Virus record (IMG/VR): IMGVR_UViG_2526164690_000043
Span: 1 to 13,417 of that record
Source of the DNA: a virus
Lineage: Duplodnaviria; Heunggongvirae; Uroviricota; Caudoviricetes
Length of the DNA stretch: 13,417 nucleotides
Reading direction: 5' to 3' (one strand)
Part shown: positions 1,252 to 7,519 of the stretch, piece by piece
Layout: each line of letters begins with the position of its first letter
Numbering within the stretch: the stretch's first letter is position 1
Translations under genes and position numbers: made by a program
Notes under the pieces: generated by a model
The model's input: the letters and a program-made list of their open reading frames with translations, nothing else
Database searches by the model: none
What the model was told of the DNA's origin: nothing

Positions 1252-1313
1252 TGCGGACAACGTGAAACAACGAGACACAACGACGAACAACAAGGAACAA
1301 AATGGAACAACGG
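1252..1313 (+). repeat. Array A: six tandem 10-bp units, each ending in (G)AACAAC (helically phased boxes)
   Basis: ACAAC at 1257-1261, 1267-1271, 1277-1281, 1287-1291 and 1307-1311, plus ACAAA at 1297-1301. The register is exactly 10 bp and the array begins about 20 bp after the int stop. Confidence 0.8.
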
Positions 1314-1835: not shown

Positions 1836-2738
1836 ATGAATACTGGATATTCTCCCGAACAAGGGCGGGGCTTCGTTCGTCCTGAAAAACAGAATCTGCA
1901 AAATTTTGCCGAAATTATTCCGGTTATTTCCGGCCTTACTGGCGGGAGTGAAACCAATATTGTTAACGCCAGAGCGTTGCAGATGTTTGATGATAAAAAG
2001 GGAGTAAATTTAACTTACACCCCTGACGGCAATCAGAATATGAGCATTATCTCTGAGTCAGGTTTCTACAAACTAATAAAAACAAAAAGCGCCCCGTTGC
2101 CGGAGCGCCTTTGTGAACAATTAACCTACTGCGCAAAAAATGAATCTGAGCAGTGGGATTATATCAACCATGTGGAGAAGCGCCACAATTGCCGAATAAC
2201 GGGCAAAACAAAGGCCACCCGCTACGGTGGCCCCTCGACACAAGCTACACGTTATCCCCAACGCATGAGCATTGCCAACAATGCCACATTTGCGGCTGGT
2301 GGGCAATGCAATCAGTCTGGTTCAGTTCGTTGCCATACCTGCAATGAGCGCTTTTCCCTGTACTCTTTAAGGAATTGCTCAAGGGCAAAAGCACATGGCG
2401 CGAATCTTTCTGATTCATGCTCTATCTTTCTGCGCCGTCTTTTCCGTGCCGGTGATAATGTTTTGGTCAATTCTTTATCGGTCATTGTGTTGTCCTGCAT
2501 AGCAATGCGCCGTAGTTACTCACACCACGGCGCTGGTGATGGTTACTCCTGCTCTTTGGCCTTGCGACGCTGGCGGCGTTTGATCTCACCTTTAACGGCA
2601 GTAACTATAAATTGCGCCTTGCTTTCACCTTCATCTAAATTTTTTCTAAGTCTGCAACAACATCATGCGGGAATCTGGCATTTAACTGTTGCGACTTATT
2701 ATTTGTTGAACCTGTTGCCATTACTGAATCCTCTCTAA
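1836..2738 (+). CDS. Hypothetical protein. Only the first ~100 codons look coding and the 3' ~600 nt of the ORF is probably an artefactual extension.
   Basis: The N-terminal part contains NMSIISESGFYKLIKTKSAP, reminiscent of the end of a Bro-N/antirepressor-type domain (weak). From ~2150 onward the translation is Cys/Ser/Arg/Leu-rich, as expected for an antisense frame. That part overlaps two better-supported minus-strand genes and their terminator. One extra A in the A6 run at 2135-2140 would give a stop (..CAKK*) at ~2144. Confidence 0.35.
   Translation: MNTGYSPEQGRGFVRPEKQNLQNFAEIIPVISGLTGGSETNIVNARALQMFDDKKGVNLTYTPDGNQNMSIISESGFYKLIKTKSAPLPERLCEQLTYCAKNESEQWDYINHVEKRHNCRITGKTKATRYGGPSTQATRYPQRMSIANNATFAAGGQCNQSGSVRCHTCNERFSLYSLRNCSRAKAHGANLSDSCSIFLRRLFRAGDNVLVNSLSVIVLSCIAMRRSYSHHGAGDGYSCSLALRRWRRLISPLTAVTINCALLSPSSKFFLSLQQHHAGIWHLTVATYYLLNLLPLLNPL
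2204..2232 (-). terminator. Rho-independent terminator of the minus-strand two-gene unit
   Basis: The minus strand reads GGCCACC-GTAGCG-GGTGGCC followed by TTTGTTTTG: a 7-bp GC-rich stem (2213-2219/2226-2232), a 6-nt loop and a T-tract. On the + strand no T-tract follows. Confidence 0.65.
2312..2485 (-). CDS. Small, highly basic hypothetical protein (57 aa from the second ATG)
   Basis: MTDKELTKTLSPARKRRRRKIEHESERF.. with AGGA 7 nt upstream of the ATG at 2485. It lies 57 nt downstream of the RHH gene on the same strand. The 3' end is uncertain, because a frame change near 2318 would extend it to a stop at 2245, just before the terminator. Confidence 0.45.
   Translation of the reverse strand: MTDKELTKTLSPARKRRRRKIEHESERFAPCAFALEQFLKEYREKRSLQVWQRTEPD
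2543..2721 (-). CDS. Ribbon-helix-helix (Arc/CopG/MetJ-like) DNA-binding protein, split by a 1-nt frameshift as given
   Basis: ATG at 2721 with AGAGGA 7 nt upstream. It reads MATGSTNNKSQQLNARFPHDVVADLEKI* (stop 2635-2637). The -1 frame continues LDEGESKAQFIVTAVKGEIKRRQRRKAKEQE* (stop 2543-2545). Joined, these give a typical ~59-aa RHH (beta strand QLNARFP, then two helices). The junction is the A6 run on the coding strand (T6 at 2640-2645). Confidence 0.65.
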
Positions 2739-2740
2739 GT

Positions 2741-2835
2741 TGGTGCGATTCAGTATACACAAAAAAAATTTCAGAGAAAGACTTGAAGTGCGATTCACTT
2801 ACTGATAGGTTAAAAACGAATGGTGCGATGCACCA
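2741..2835. promoter_or_regulatory. Divergent switch region: three operator-like copies of GTGCGAT(T/G)CA plus candidate divergent promoters
   Basis: TGGTGCGATTCAGTA at 2741-2755. AAGTGCGATTCACTT at 2786-2800 (AAGTG-N5-CACTT palindrome). TGGTGCGATGCACCA at 2821-2835 (TGGTGC-N3-GCACCA palindrome). Core starts are 45 and 35 bp apart. The candidate rightward promoter is TTGAAG (2783-2788), 17 bp, TAGGTT (2806-2811), overlapping copy 2. The candidate leftward -10 is TATACT (minus strand, 2752-2757), overlapping copy 1. Confidence 0.6.
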
Positions 2836-2911
2836 AACAACAACGCCCCGCAGTGGTGGCACACATGCAGGGCGTCTAACCACCAACGATAGCGAAAGTA
2901 TCGAGGTAGCT

Positions 2912-3112
2912 ATGAGAAATCATACCATACACCCGCAAGGGCGGGACTCGCACAACCTGAATAAATACATCTGGCGTTTTATCGCCCTGAGCACGGCACA
3001 ACCGCGCGTGATTACCATTGAGGCCACCAGCGAACAGGAAGCACGCCAGCAATCTCCGGCTGGCTGCGTGATGGTATTTGCTGCCCGTATTCGTCAGGGG
3101 GTAGGCTTATGA
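2912..3112 (+). CDS. Icd-like (host cell-division inhibitor-like) small protein, first gene of the rightward early operon
   Basis: 66 aa from the ATG at 2912 (GAGGT upstream). KYIWRFIALSTAQPRVITIEATSEQEARQQSPAGCVMVFAARIRQGV resembles the Icd-like family of P4-like islands (W.F.A....P.V....A.SE.EAR.......F.AAR). The track ORF starts at TTG 2783, which lies inside the operators. Confidence 0.6.
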   Translation: MRNHTIHPQGRDSHNLNKYIWRFIALSTAQPRVITIEATSEQEARQQSPAGCVMVFAARIRQGVGL

Positions 3113-3553: not shown

Positions 3554-3911
3554 CCTGTCAATTTCTGACCTTAACAGCATTCAGTTTGACGAGAAATTTA
3601 CCGGGCAGTTGCTGGTCAATGTGGAGAACGGGCGCATAGTGCGTAATTATCACCTGCCGGATGGTGCAATTGCCGGAAGCGTTGAAGCATTGCTGGAACT
3701 GGCGGAACGTGCGCGACTGATTAAGCCGTCAACGAGCCATCACGATGATGATCTGCATTTTACCGGATGTATGGTGAGTCACTACGAAAACGGCGTCGAG
3801 GTATCCTGCGAACGGCTGCGTGATGATTGCTGTTTCGGCACACTGCCGGAATTTATCGAGTTGCTGACCAGTTGCGGTTATCAGGTCATTCAGGGGGGTA
3901 AACATGCGTGA
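3546..3911 (+). CDS. Hypothetical protein (121 aa)
   Basis: ATG at 3546 preceded by AGGAGG, overlapping the upstream stop. No family recognised. Confidence 0.6.
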   Translation: MHNLSISDLNSIQFDEKFTGQLLVNVENGRIVRNYHLPDGAIAGSVEALLELAERARLIKPSTSHHDDDLHFTGCMVSHYENGVEVSCERLRDDCCFGTLPEFIELLTSCGYQVIQGGKHA

Positions 3912-4125
3912 TGATCGTTTTAATTCCCTGAAACAGGAATTTTCCGGCGTTCCTGATGATGCGGCTGATGCGCTTTCGTCAATATCTGAAATTATGCGGG
4001 TGGCTTTTTTCTTTCTTTGCACTGATGAGCACAGAGATACAGGGCTAAATATTCTTGATATTGCCGCTAACTATGCTGATTTCGTGACAGAAGCTGTTTT
4101 AAGAAAAACAACGGACGGGGATTAA
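3904..4125 (+). CDS. Hypothetical protein (73 aa)
   Basis: ATG at 3904 preceded by GGGGGT, with an 8-nt overlap of the upstream gene. No family recognised. Confidence 0.55.
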   Translation: MRDDRFNSLKQEFSGVPDDAADALSSISEIMRVAFFFLCTDEHRDTGLNILDIAANYADFVTEAVLRKTTDGD

Positions 4126-4365: not shown

Positions 4366-4665
4366 ATGAAACTTAAATATTCTGGCTTAACTGCCAGTGG
4401 CAACACTCACCCTAAATTTACGCGCGGCGATATTTACCGCGACCAGTACGGCGGCACGGTAATGATTAAGGGCGTGGCGGGACGGTGCGTAACCTACCGC
4501 CGTGAAGGTTACGAATATGATTGCGTGATGCCTGTTTATCAGTTCCGGCGTGATTTTTCTCTGGTACAGACCGCGCCGCATAACGTGCCCACCAGCAACG
4601 CCAGGGCACGGGCAAACATCCAGAAGCTGAAAACCATGATTAACGGATTCAGGGGCAAGAAATGA
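4366..4665 (+). CDS. Hypothetical protein, possibly DUF4222-like
   Basis: GDIYRDQYGGTVMIKGVAGRCVTYRREGYEYDCVMPVYQFRRDFSLV resembles the small beta-rich DUF4222 pattern seen in enterobacterial prophages. This rests on memory only. Confidence 0.45.
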   Translation: MKLKYSGLTASGNTHPKFTRGDIYRDQYGGTVMIKGVAGRCVTYRREGYEYDCVMPVYQFRRDFSLVQTAPHNVPTSNARARANIQKLKTMINGFRGKK

Positions 4666-6059
4666 AAAGCGCACCGAACTTAAAAAAACAGCCTTACGAC
4701 AAGATGACCGAAGTCATTATTTTTGCGGGTAGTGATGCCTGGGCACATGCGAAACAGTGGCAGGAACAGGACGGGCGACTGGCTGGCGATAATGTGCCTC
4801 CCGTTGTGCTGGCTGATGATCAACTGGATGAACTGGCAGACCTGAGAATCATCGACGAGGGGCGCTATTGTGTCCGGCTGTACAAGGCAGGCCACATCAG
4901 GCCATCAAATATTAATGCCATTGCGCACAAGCTGGCAGCGGCAGGTGTACAGGATGCGAATTACTACCCCGATGGGATGCACAGCCAGAAGCGGGAGAAC
5001 TGGCGCGAATATCTGGAACGGGAGCGCGGGGAAAAGCAGGAAGAAAAAGGCCACCAGCGCAAAACAAAGCTACCGATGAGCGTTGGTTCTGCCGGATATG
5101 ACACGCAACTGGATTACGTGGTTAAGGGGATTATTCCGGCGGTATCGCTTTGCAGCATATACGGGGCGAGCGGTTCCTATAAATCGTTCCTTGCGGGTTC
5201 GTGGGCGTGTCACGTTTCCACGGGCCGCCAGTGGGGAGGCCGCAGGGTGGCGCATGGCGCTGTTCTCTATGTGGTTGGTGAAGGCGGTATCGGCGTTCCG
5301 CGTCGTGTAAAAGCCTGGGAGGTTGTGCACGGTGAGCAGGTGAAAAATCTTTACCTTGTAAACCGTCCCATCTTTCCGGCTGCCCCGCTTGATGTTGATG
5401 AAATGGTTATCGCTGCCCGTCAGGTGGAGCGGGAAACGGGTAAACCTGTTCGAATGATTATTCTGGATACGCTGGCGCGCTGCTTTGGCGGCAATGATGA
5501 AAATGACTCCCGTGATATGGGGACGTTTATCCGTGGGTGTGACGAACTGAAACGACGCACAGGGGCCACGGTGCTGGTGGTTCACCATTCCGGCAAGGAT
5601 GAGACGAAAGGCGCGCGCGGTTCCAGTGCATTTCGTGCTTCGCTGGATGCTGAATACCGGATACGCAGGGAGGACGCAGGAAGCGAAGCGCTGGTTATCT
5701 CATGCACCAAAATGAAGGACGCGGAGGAACTCAAAGAAGCCGCATATGACTTACGCGTGGTGGAGCTTTTTACCGACGCTGACGGGGAGTTAATCACGTC
5801 GCTGGTGGTGGTGGATAAGCCGCGCCCTCCCGTTGAACTGGAGCGCATCGAGGAGGCAGGGAACAAGACGGAGAATCACGCCGCGCTATGGCAGTGCATC
5901 AGAACACGAACAGCACACGGGGAGGCGTGCACTATCGCCCTTCTCCGCGACGATATGAAAAAGCTGGGGTATGAGATGAAGCACTTCCGGCGCTGGCTGT
6001 ACAAGCTGGAAAATGATGGCGTAATCGTTATTGACGGTGATGACGTGCGCCCGCTGTAA
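4662..6059 (+). CDS. Replication initiator/helicase, RepA-like RecA-fold ATPase (AAA_25 type) with a C-terminal winged-helix-like tail
   Basis: 465 aa. Walker A is YGASGSYKS and Walker B is VRMIILDTLARC. VLVVHHSGKDETKGARGSSA is typical of RepA/DnaB-like AAA_25 proteins. ATGA-coupled to the upstream ORF, and the iteron array begins at its stop codon. Confidence 0.85.
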   Translation: MKSAPNLKKQPYDKMTEVIIFAGSDAWAHAKQWQEQDGRLAGDNVPPVVLADDQLDELADLRIIDEGRYCVRLYKAGHIRPSNINAIAHKLAAAGVQDANYYPDGMHSQKRENWREYLERERGEKQEEKGHQRKTKLPMSVGSAGYDTQLDYVVKGIIPAVSLCSIYGASGSYKSFLAGSWACHVSTGRQWGGRRVAHGAVLYVVGEGGIGVPRRVKAWEVVHGEQVKNLYLVNRPIFPAAPLDVDEMVIAARQVERETGKPVRMIILDTLARCFGGNDENDSRDMGTFIRGCDELKRRTGATVLVVHHSGKDETKGARGSSAFRASLDAEYRIRREDAGSEALVISCTKMKDAEELKEAAYDLRVVELFTDADGELITSLVVVDKPRPPVELERIEEAGNKTENHAALWQCIRTRTAHGEACTIALLRDDMKKLGYEMKHFRRWLYKLENDGVIVIDGDDVRPL

Positions 6060-7234: not shown

Positions 7235-7246
7235 GGGGTGGGGACG

Positions 7247-7519
7247 ATGGTACATGACCGCATAGCGGAAGAGCTGGAGGCGAAAGGCTTTTACCGGAGA
7301 GCGTCGGCGCGATGGGGTGAAGTCATGCAGCTGGTGGAGACAGACAAGGAACGGCATCACATCACGATGCGACGGCTGGAATGTTGCAGGAAGGCACAGA
7401 GGCCACCGGAGCCACCGGATAATTACGGAGACCTGAAAAAGGCAGTCGATCGCACTTATGCCGAAATGGGGATAGATGGTGCTGGTGATGAAATATGGCG
7501 CAATTACCAGGACAGCTAA
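7247..7519 (+). CDS. PerC-family transcriptional regulator-like protein
   Basis: MVHDRIAEELEAKGFYRRASARWGEVM matches the PerC/Pch N-terminal signature (A..LE..G.[WY]RRA..RW.EVM). About 90 aa, as is typical. The track start is GTG 7238, but ATG 7247 is preferred. Confidence 0.6.
   Translation: MVHDRIAEELEAKGFYRRASARWGEVMQLVETDKERHHITMRRLECCRKAQRPPEPPDNYGDLKKAVDRTYAEMGIDGAGDEIWRNYQDS

What the first reader, a model, noticed from the sequence alone, without database searches (positions are those of the whole stretch)
2543..2911. Compact divergent switch: RHH gene facing the early operon across three copies of one operator motif
Seen: GTGCGAT(T/G)CA occurs three times in the 190-bp divergent intergenic region, with cores at 2743, 2788 and 2823. 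Two copies sit within 15-bp palindromes. Copy 2 overlaps a plausible rightward -35/spacer, and copy 1 overlaps a leftward TATACT. The leftward gene encodes an Arc/CopG-type RHH fold, followed by a small very basic ORF and a terminator.

Established knowledge: RHH repressors bind tandem or palindromic operators cooperatively. Gram-negative PICIs are generally described as AlpA-activated, without a defined master repressor.

Inference: this could be the element's maintenance switch, with an autoregulated RHH repressor holding the Icd-like/replication operon off. That would make the RHH protein a candidate target for helper-phage-mediated induction.
Basis: partly seen in the sequence, partly recalled or inferred. 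Interest (0 to 1): 0.6.

Follow-up and report, generated by a model that had tools for sequence, protein, structure and literature searches.

The report
RHH repressor, operators and antisense RNA
A phage-satellite island of E. coli, of a kind described as lacking a repressor, carries a small DNA-binding protein gene facing its early genes across three matching binding sites, plus a hidden antisense RNA. Together these look like the island's off-switch.

Summary
GTGCGATKCA occurs exactly three times in the window, all in the 189-bp gap between a leftward small gene and the rightward Icd-like/replication operon (0.10 expected).

In 40+ related satellites from about 20 genera, the sites are 13-bp GTG-N5-CAC operators at fixed offsets. 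O1 lies on the leftward -10/+1, O2 on the rightward -35/spacer, and O3 just after the rightward start. The N5 core changes together in all three sites. It tracks the predicted beta-strand of the small protein (YlcI/YnfO family, Arc-like) in at least 11 specificity classes.

EcCICFT073, the prototype Gram-negative PICI, has identical AlpA and a near-identical Icd. It carries a swapped ~280-bp cassette with a different protein N-terminus and different operators. So the ribbon-helix-helix (RHH) protein, and neither AlpA nor Icd, is the operator binder.

It is related to SymR and to the IncQ countertranscript.

The RHH gene in this window is frameshifted (T6 versus T7). This is one of 12 indels and may be a sequencing artefact.

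Repression is inferred from geometry and has not been shown. The role as helper-phage target is unsupported.

The parts
2543..2722 (-). RHH-type regulator gene (YlcI/YnfO family, 59 aa when intact). It is frameshifted here by loss of one T in the run at 2640-2645.
   Evidence: NCBIfam NF041551 scores 65.4 bits against a cutoff of 30. An intact WP_000190566.1 is present in relatives. The indel was located. hhalign against the Arc family gives E 1.6e-4 and probability 50%.
2742..2754 (+). Operator O1, GGTGCGATTCAGT. It overlaps the leftward -10 and the predicted leftward start.
   Evidence: It sits at a fixed offset from the RHH ATG in all loci.
2752..2757 (-). Leftward promoter -10 (TATACT on the minus strand).
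   Evidence: Column entropy is 0.36 bits against 1.09 for the neighbouring A/T spacer, over 39 distinct sequences. The consensus scan did not call it because no -35 is present.
2783..2811 (+). Rightward early promoter: -35 TTGAAG (2783-2788), 17-nt spacer, -10 TAGGTT (2806-2811). The predicted start is near 2818.
   Evidence: The TTGANG hexamer has entropy 0.32 bits. TAnnnT lies 17-18 nt downstream in all loci. It matches only 7 of 12 consensus positions here and was not called by the scan.
2787..2799 (+). Operator O2, AGTGCGATTCACT. It spans the -35 and spacer of the rightward promoter.
2822..2834 (+). Operator O3, GGTGCGATGCACC, at about +4 to +17 of the rightward transcript.
   Evidence: It is inverted or shifted in other specificity classes.
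2833..2911 (-). Predicted ~80-nt cis-antisense RNA. Its first stem-loop carries the complement of the Shine-Dalgarno sequence, followed by invariant UGGUUAGA, a long terminator hairpin (2877->2844) and a U-rich tail.
   Evidence: In alignment A6, 23 pairs are 96.9% paired, 16 have compensatory changes, and 0 of 500 shuffles match. Forty-nine cells are G.U on this strand against 3 on the other. Covariance-model matches to SymR are reciprocal. The model also matches the IncQ countertranscript.
2919..2927 (-). Candidate extended -10 promoter of the antisense RNA (TGGTATGAT on the minus strand). It ends 7 nt before the predicted start at 2911.
   Evidence: Read directly from the sequence. K-12 symR has the same geometry: TAGAAT, 7 nt, then AGUCAU. 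This is an inference. The element overlaps coding sequence, so its conservation is uninformative.
2912..3112 (+). Icd-like gene (66 aa), the first gene of the tightly packed rightward operon that runs to the RepA-family helicase (4662-6059).
   Evidence: NCBIfam NF033153, E 2.5e-19. GAGG lies 5 nt upstream. This start is the one annotated in CFT073 and is conserved across loci.
2312..2500 (-). Small basic ORF co-oriented with the RHH gene. It is an accessory gene found only in the E. coli loci examined here.
   Evidence: phrog_21027. It is identical in CFT073. tblastn found no match in the 42 non-E. coli loci.
2201..2235 (-). Terminator-like hairpin plus U-rich run that ends the leftward unit.
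   Evidence: -18.5 kcal/mol, z = -1.3, weak. The consensus scan did not list it.

Best explanation
This is the early-gene control module of a capsid-forming PICI (EcCIEDL933 type).

A 59-aa Arc-like ribbon-helix-helix protein, transcribed leftward, binds three 13-bp GTG-N5-CAC operators. O2 and O3 bracket the rightward promoter, at the -35/spacer and just after the start. Occupancy there should block transcription of the Icd-like/replication operon. O1 covers the -10/+1 of the protein's own promoter, which gives autoregulation.

A second layer is an ~80-nt antisense RNA. It starts at the Icd start codon and ends at a hairpin next to O3. It pairs with the Icd ribosome-binding site, as SymR does with symE and the IncQ countertranscript does with repA.

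Shown here: the sites, their positions, their co-variation with the protein, and the RNA structure.

Inferred:
- binding of the protein to the sites;
- repression of the two promoters;
- expression of the RNA;
- AlpA-driven rightward transcription, convergent with the RHH gene, as the way repression is overcome.
For: 1. Three exact copies are found against 0.10 expected.

2. In 42 loci from Enterobacterales plus EcCICFT073, a de novo repeat search finds three copies at offsets of about 23, 68 and 91-106 nt from the RHH ATG.

3. The N5 core is the most variable part of the region (1.25-1.29 bits). The GTG arms (0.11) and the promoter hexamers (0.32-0.36) are conserved. Within the QQLNARF class, which spans 7 genera, operator entropy is 0.06 against 0.70 for other positions.

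4. Each beta-strand heptad has its own core:
- QQLNARF -> CGATT
- QMTTVRI -> TATKT
- QQIVSRV -> GCATK
- LQVSVRL -> GTGTT
- QSVTVRV -> TAAGA
- QALKARV -> GGCCA
Further classes are listed.

5. An out-of-sample class, QKLQARA, showed the predicted three-site layout.

6. The window and EcCICFT073 are 95-100% identical per 20-nt block in the flanks. They share identical AlpA, an identical basic ORF and a near-identical Icd. They are only 35-75% identical per 20-nt block over 2588-2866, which holds RHH codons 1-45 plus the operators.

7. hhalign places Q12/N14/R16 on Arc Q9/N11/R13. Weak Pfam hits go to two families (PF07704, PF18064) that I recall as belonging to the RHH clan.

8. Antisense RNA.
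Against: - No binding or expression data exist.
- Pfam gives no hit for this protein at E <= 0.1.
- The consensus scan called neither promoter. The rightward promoter matches only 7 of 12 consensus positions here.
- The RHH gene is frameshifted in this window.
- Published experiments show alpA is necessary for induction. Over-expression of alpA is sufficient to induce an island that carries this module (PMC6092414). So the RHH cannot be the only, or the final, control point.
- Operator and gene are adjacent, so part of the co-variation could reflect linkage. The concerted change of three separate sites cannot.
Confidence: 0.62

Rival explanations
1. The module is a local safety catch on a toxic first gene (Icd-like), built like SymE-SymR with a protein repressor in place of LexA. 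It is not the master switch of the island. Replication and packaging genes would be driven mainly by read-through from the AlpA-activated promoter.
For: The antisense RNA targets only the Icd ribosome-binding site. AlpA is necessary for induction, and its over-expression is sufficient (PMC6092414; 10.1101/2022.09.08.507074). No strong rightward terminator was found between alpA and the operators.
Against: The ORFs from Icd to the helicase are contiguous or overlapping, with no gap for another promoter. The rightward promoter therefore reads the whole early operon. The cassette swap resembles exchange of a phage immunity region.
Confidence: 0.25
2. The RHH protein is the antitoxin of a type II toxin-antitoxin pair with the downstream basic ORF. 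On this view the repeats serve only to autoregulate that pair.
For: RHH antitoxins precede their toxins and autoregulate. The basic ORF follows 43 nt downstream.
Against: The basic ORF gave no tblastn match in any of the 42 non-E. coli loci, while the RHH gene and the operators persist. In several loci the RHH gene is followed directly by convergent alpA. The protein has only a roughly 10-residue tail after helix B. Two of the three operators sit on the opposite promoter. The basic ORF matches no toxin family.
Confidence: 0.04
3. Another island protein (AlpA, Icd-like) or a host factor binds the repeats, and the RHH protein does something else, as its namesake YlcI may do next to cos.
For: PHROGs labels Icd-like families 'transcriptional repressor'. 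K-12 YlcI sits beside cos/nohD and has no such repeats nearby.
Against: AlpA is identical and Icd nearly identical between the window and EcCICFT073, yet the operator cores differ. Only the RHH N-terminus differs with them.
Confidence: 0.04
4. The repeats are chance, or a by-product of promoter architecture.
For: The GTG/CAC arms overlap conserved promoter elements.
Against: The expected count is 0.10. The same three-site layout, with class-specific cores, appears in more than 40 loci.
Confidence: 0.01

Closest known systems
Phage P22 immI region (Mnt and Arc, RHH repressors of the ant operon)
   Same: Both have a small RHH repressor encoded divergently from the operon it controls, with operators overlapping back-to-back promoters. 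The strand residues Q-N-R align with Arc Q9/N11/R13.
   Different: Here one protein has three separate 13-bp sites. There is no Mnt-type tetramerisation domain. The protein ends in an invariant arginine-rich tail (EIKRRQR). The controlled operon starts with Icd and replication genes, not an antirepressor. Homology to Arc is only weakly supported (probability 50%).
Stl/Rpr master repressors of Gram-positive PICIs (SaPIs)
   Same: The position and logic match. The leftward regulator faces the rightward excision/replication operon and would keep the island quiescent (PMC6092414).
   Different: Stl proteins are large helix-turn-helix proteins that are inactivated by binding helper-phage proteins. 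Here the fold is RHH. Induction is known to require AlpA, and no anti-repressor is known.
SymE-SymR of E. coli K-12
   Same: Both have a ~77-80-nt cis-antisense RNA that starts at the start codon of a harmful gene, covers its ribosome-binding site and ends in a hairpin. The promoter is also held by a protein repressor. Covariance-model matches are reciprocal (35.5 bits Rfam to PICI in L005; 32.9 bits PICI to symR).
   Different: The score is below Rfam's threshold of 61 bits, and the window itself gives no Rfam match. The target is Icd-like and not SymE. The repressor is an RHH protein and not LexA.
IncQ (RSF1010/R1162) repressor F - countertranscript - repA
   Same: The leader layout is shared: hairpin, CUAACCACCAAC, a Shine-Dalgarno hairpin, then AUGGCU. 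The PICI model hits the antisense strand at 27.5 bits. The window's replication protein is annotated 'helicase RepA family' and matches Pfam AAA_25. IncQ repA carries the same RefSeq name.
   Different: In IncQ the repressor is co-directional, and the RNA targets repA itself.
CopG of pMV158
   Same: As I recall it, CopG is a 45-aa RHH protein that binds a 13-bp pseudo-symmetric element over the -35 box of a replication operon. This was not tested here.
   Different: CopG is co-transcribed with its target. It has one operator and is not on an integrated satellite.

Membership tests
Ribbon-helix-helix (MetJ/Arc) superfamily | N-terminal strand with alternating outward and inward residues, followed by two helices joined by a G-x-S/T/N turn | tested here: met
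   The sequence reads QQLNARF-P, HDVVADLEKNL, DEGES, KAQFIVTAVKGEIKRRQ. AlphaFold places helices at 19-26 and 35-58.
Ribbon-helix-helix (MetJ/Arc) superfamily | Significant profile similarity to an established RHH family | tested here: inconclusive
   hhalign against the Arc family gives probability 50% and E 1.6e-4, in register. Pfam PF07704 and PF18064 are hit weakly by 10 of 39 members each. HMMER against the PDB gave nothing.
Ribbon-helix-helix (MetJ/Arc) superfamily | Intertwined dimer with a two-stranded antiparallel sheet | not testable with these tools
Ribbon-helix-helix (MetJ/Arc) superfamily | DNA specificity set by strand residues that contact repeated or palindromic sites | tested here: met
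   Strand heptads co-vary one-to-one with the operator core in at least 11 classes. This evidence is indirect.
YlcI/YnfO family (NCBIfam NF041551) | Score above the curated cutoff | tested here: met
   65.4 bits against a cutoff of 30.
Pfam DUF3950 (PF13132) | Score above the gathering threshold | tested here: not met
   The island protein gives no hit at E <= 0.1. K-12 YlcI scores 72.8 bits.
PICI master repressor (Stl/Rpr type) | Encoded divergently from the early excision/replication operon | tested here: met
PICI master repressor (Stl/Rpr type) | Represses the early operon; loss causes uncontrolled replication | not testable with these tools
   Only operator geometry is available.
PICI master repressor (Stl/Rpr type) | Inactivated by a helper-phage protein | not testable with these tools
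   The literature places the helper signal on alpA (PMC6092414).
SymR antisense RNA (Rfam RF01809) | Score at or above the gathering threshold of 61 bits | tested here: not met
   L005 scores 35.5 bits and L020 27.6 bits. The window gives no match.
SymR antisense RNA (Rfam RF01809) | Two stem-loops, cis-antisense to the ribosome-binding site and start codon, with a reciprocal match | tested here: met
   Model R1 hits annotated symR at the same coordinates and on the same strand.
R1162-like antisense RNA (Rfam RF00043) | Score at or above 55 bits | tested here: not met
   16.4 bits, E 1.2. R1 hits the IncQ region at 27.5 bits.
Type II toxin-antitoxin (RHH antitoxin) | Conserved co-transcribed toxin partner | tested here: not met
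   The downstream ORF gave no tblastn match in any of the 42 non-E. coli loci.

The most novel reading that the evidence does not exclude
YlcI/YnfO-type RHH proteins are the missing immunity repressors of Gram-negative PICIs. This includes the prototypes EcCICFT073 and EcCIEDL933.

They come in a dozen or more operator specificities that are exchanged as ~280-bp cassettes. They work together with a SymR/IncQ-type antisense RNA.

AlpA-driven transcription, convergent on the repressor gene, is the anti-repression step that couples the island to its helper phage.
Probability: 0.35. Interest if true: 0.85.

Novelty: new variant of a known kind. Interest (0 to 1): 0.72.

Why it matters
[quoted passage not shown] Why they differ from Gram-positive islands is called a mystery.

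This module sits in both experimentally used prototypes. It gives a concrete protein, three concrete sites and a natural specificity swap to test.

If it is real, three things follow:
- It would define immunity groups among co-resident islands.
- It would explain how a toxic Icd-like gene is kept silent.
- It would link satellite early control to the SymE-SymR leader and to the IncQ repA leader.

Tried and rejected
- Neither Pfam nor HMMER against PDB sequences gave a significant hit for this protein.
- A profile search of the 5.8-billion-protein set listed only unannotated family members among its best 120 of 786 hits. No bridge to an annotated RHH family was seen.
- Rfam on the whole window gave no match at E <= 1.
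- The consensus promoter scan called neither divergent promoter.
- I looked for a motif shared between the alpA upstream region and the switch, as a possible AlpA site. Only two 9-mers are shared, which is about the chance level.
- I looked for a trans partner of the invariant TCTAACCAC elsewhere in the window. Nothing rose above chance.
- The PGAP long Icd ORF from ATG 2828 is rejected. That ATG is created by the T-to-G variant inside O3. The region is a structured leader, and CFT073 is annotated from the 2912 start.
- The RSF1010 accession NC_001740.1 is not in the plasmid collection. I used an IncQ1 relative instead.
- Literature searches found no description of this protein or its operators in PICIs. 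Only open-access text was searched.

Full report
**What the window is.** The window is a capsid-forming PICI of E. coli. From left to right it carries:
- integrase (1-1230);
- AlpA (1595-1783, Pfam E 3e-18);
- a leftward pair of small genes;
- a rightward block that runs from an Icd-like gene through DUF4222 and a RepA-family helicase;
- a PerC-like gene, then capsid, protease, portal, HNH and small terminase genes.

It is 99.65% identical to an island next to roxA in E. coli O103 RM8385. Its left end is shared with EcCICFT073, the prototype Gram-negative PICI. The two have the same integrase, AlpA and basic-ORF protein accessions.

**The observation.** GTGCGATKCA occurs at 2743, 2788 and 2823 and nowhere else. 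The expected count is 0.10, and 0 of 200 shuffles reached three.

**The protein.**
- The leftward gene (2543-2722) is broken in this window. It has T6 at 2640-2645, while all 71 complete E. coli genomes with this allele have T7 and an intact 59-aa protein.
- The window carries 12 single-base indels relative to RM8385. Several occur as compensating pairs inside packaging genes. The frameshift is therefore probably a sequence-quality artefact, or this copy is decaying.
- The intact protein belongs to NCBIfam YlcI/YnfO (65.4 bits against a cutoff of 30). It does not match Pfam DUF3950, and PHROGs gives it no function.
- Its pattern is that of an RHH protein: strand QQLNARF, P, helix, DEGES turn, long helix.
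- Profile-profile comparison with the Arc family gives probability 50% and E 1.6e-4. It places Q12/N14/R16 on Arc Q9/N11/R13. From established knowledge, these are the base-contacting residues of Arc.
- Ten of 39 members weakly hit each of two Pfam families (PF07704, PF18064) that I recall as belonging to the RHH clan.
- The AlphaFold monomer (pLDDT 66) shows two helices and no strand. Fold searches gave nothing significant.
- Membership of the RHH fold is therefore likely but not proven.

**The operators.** I fetched 42 loci that encode relatives, from about 20 genera of Enterobacterales.
- All share the same synteny: int, alpA, an optional Bro zone, the RHH gene leftward, then the Icd-type gene and replication genes rightward.
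- A de novo repeat search finds three copies of a locus-specific motif about 23, 68 and 91-106 nt from the RHH ATG.
- Once aligned, the sites read as 13-mers, N-GTG-N5-CAC-N.
- Across 39 distinct sequences the N5 core is the most variable stretch (1.25-1.29 bits). The GTG arms (0.11 bits), the leftward -10 (0.36) and the rightward -35 (0.32) are conserved.
- Within the window's own class, which spans seven genera, operator positions have 0.06 bits against 0.70 for the rest.
- Each strand heptad has its own core. At least eleven such classes are seen.
- One further class, chosen afterwards (QKLQARA, abundant in E. coli), showed the predicted three-site layout with a palindromic CTGGAATCCAG core.

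Linkage alone could make a gene and its neighbouring DNA co-vary. It does not explain three separated sites changing to the same new core.

**A natural swap.** The window and EcCICFT073 are 95-100% identical per 20-nt block on both sides. Over 2588-2866 they are only 35-75% identical per block. That cassette holds RHH codons 1-45, both promoters, all three operators and the loop of the leader hairpin.
- EcCICFT073 has strand QALKARV and cores GGGGA and GGCCA.
- AlpA and the basic ORF are identical in the two islands, and Icd differs at two residues.
- Neither AlpA, the basic ORF nor Icd can therefore be the specificity-determining binder.

**Geometry.**
- O1 (2742-2754) overlaps the leftward -10 and covers the predicted start.
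- O2 (2787-2799) spans the -35 and spacer of the rightward promoter (TTGAAG, 17 nt, TAGGTT).
- O3 (2822-2834) lies a few bases after the predicted start.

This layout is expected for repression of the rightward operon together with autoregulation. It is an inference. The consensus scan called neither promoter, and the rightward promoter is weak here.

Between O3 and the Icd start there is a long hairpin followed by an invariant TCTAACC.
- Its pairing is far better on the minus strand. Forty-nine cells are A.C on the plus strand, which is G.U on the minus strand, against three the other way. The minus-strand 3' flank is 55% U.
- On that strand, 38 distinct sequences fold into two stem-loops. 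These have 23 pairs that are 96.9% paired, and 16 pairs show compensatory changes. None of 500 shuffles matches, and slid controls give 36-44%.
- The first loop carries the complement of the Shine-Dalgarno sequence, and the 5' end lies at the Icd start codon.
- An extended -10 (TGGTATGAT) sits 7 nt upstream, the same spacing as in K-12 symR.
- Rfam's SymR model matches this strand full-length, but below threshold, in two relatives (35.5 and 27.6 bits against a cutoff of 61).
- A model built from the island sequences finds the annotated K-12 symR at 32.9 bits, with the hit (3832-3918) spanning the annotated gene (3836-3912) on the same strand (E 8e-6).
- The same model finds the antisense strand of the IncQ repA leader at 27.5 bits. 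From my recollection of the literature, a 75-nt countertranscript is known there.

The early operon therefore probably has a second, post-transcriptional lock on its first, potentially toxic, gene.

PGAP's long Icd ORF starts at ATG 2828. It runs through this leader and starts inside O3, so it is probably a wrong call.

**Fit with the literature.**
- Fillol-Salom et al. (PMC6092414) state that a global repressor in Gram-negative PICIs is unclear.
- The cf-PICI paper (10.1101/2022.09.08.507074) shows the same alpA dependence for EcCIEDL933.
- Mageeney-type surveys (PMC10111431) describe the Bro zone and immunity RNAs, but not this protein.
- I found no description of the RHH/operator cassette. 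Only open-access text was searched.

Because AlpA alone induces an island that carries an intact module, the RHH protein is unlikely to be the direct sensor of the helper. alpA and the RHH gene are convergent. No strong rightward terminator was found between them. The strongest hairpins in the region, at 2085-2112 and 2210-2235, act as terminators for leftward transcription. AlpA-driven read-through that interferes with RHH expression and enters the early operon is therefore a reasonable but untested way to reconcile the two.

**Verdict.** The repeats are real operators for the adjacent Arc-like protein (high confidence). The switch reading is plausible (moderate confidence). The helper-target idea is unsupported. 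The region also encodes a SymR/IncQ-type antisense RNA.

This is a new variant of known kinds of control, found in a system where no repressor had been defined. It is directly testable in two existing model islands.

Noticed in passing
window 2640-2645: A one-base deletion (T6 versus T7) truncates the RHH protein after 28 residues. None of the 71 complete E. coli genomes with this allele shares it.
   Followed up: yes
window, whole length versus L001: There are 12 single-base indels and 35 substitutions relative to RM8385. Several indels form compensating pairs or triplets inside the protease, portal and neighbouring genes (for example 9364/9397 and 9940/9957/9967). This suggests low sequence quality or a decaying copy.
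   Followed up: partly
window 2833-2927 (-): A conserved ~80-nt antisense RNA lies opposite the Icd leader. It is related to SymR and to the IncQ repA countertranscript, and no annotation of it was seen.
   Followed up: yes
L047 3832-3918 and L051 376-460: The leader and antisense region of K-12 symE/SymR, and that of IncQ repA, share layout and motifs with the island leader (AGCCAU, a CCUCC loop, UGGUUAG, then a hairpin). This hints at common ancestry for the three control regions.
   Followed up: partly
window 2828-2830: The ATG that RefSeq uses for a 94-aa Icd-like protein lies inside operator O3. It exists only because O3 reads CGATG instead of CGATT. The 66-aa form starting at 2912 is better supported.
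   Followed up: yes
window 2588-2866 versus L045: A ~280-bp mosaic cassette (RHH N-terminus, promoters, operators) has been exchanged between otherwise near-identical EcCIEDL933-type and EcCICFT073 left ends.
   Followed up: yes
RHH residues 46-52 (window about 2566-2586): An invariant arginine-rich tail, EIKRRQR, is found in all specificity classes. It resembles arginine-rich RNA-binding peptides. Its partner (DNA backbone, RNA or protein) is unknown.
   Followed up: no
window 1836-2252 (+): A degenerate Bro-N-like fragment (Pfam E 0.0087, below threshold) lies between alpA and the leftward unit. Relatives have longer versions. The 300-aa ORF listed here is spurious beyond this part.
   Followed up: partly
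window 2085-2112 (-): A strong intrinsic terminator (-20.5 kcal/mol, z = -5.9) lies 200 nt beyond the basic ORF, with no annotated gene before it. It is a second stop for leftward transcription.
   Followed up: partly
window 2507-2533 (-): A stable hairpin (-19.4 kcal/mol) without a U-tract lies between the RHH stop codon and the basic ORF start.
   Followed up: no
window 1255-1312: About six RRACAAC repeats at roughly 9-10-nt spacing lie just after the integrase stop. They could be recombinase or AlpA sites. Rfam's int-alpA RNA motif was found in two relatives (L005, L018) but not here.
   Followed up: no
window 7238-7519: A PerC/ANR-like regulator is present (NCBIfam ANR, E 0.0014). A similar gene in EcCIMP1 was reported to repress LEE (PMC11773190).
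   Followed up: no
L046 8252-8446: K-12 YlcI has an RHH-like pattern. It is divergent from nohD across the cos region and has no GTG-N5-CAC repeats nearby. The family name therefore covers at least two different genomic contexts.
   Followed up: partly
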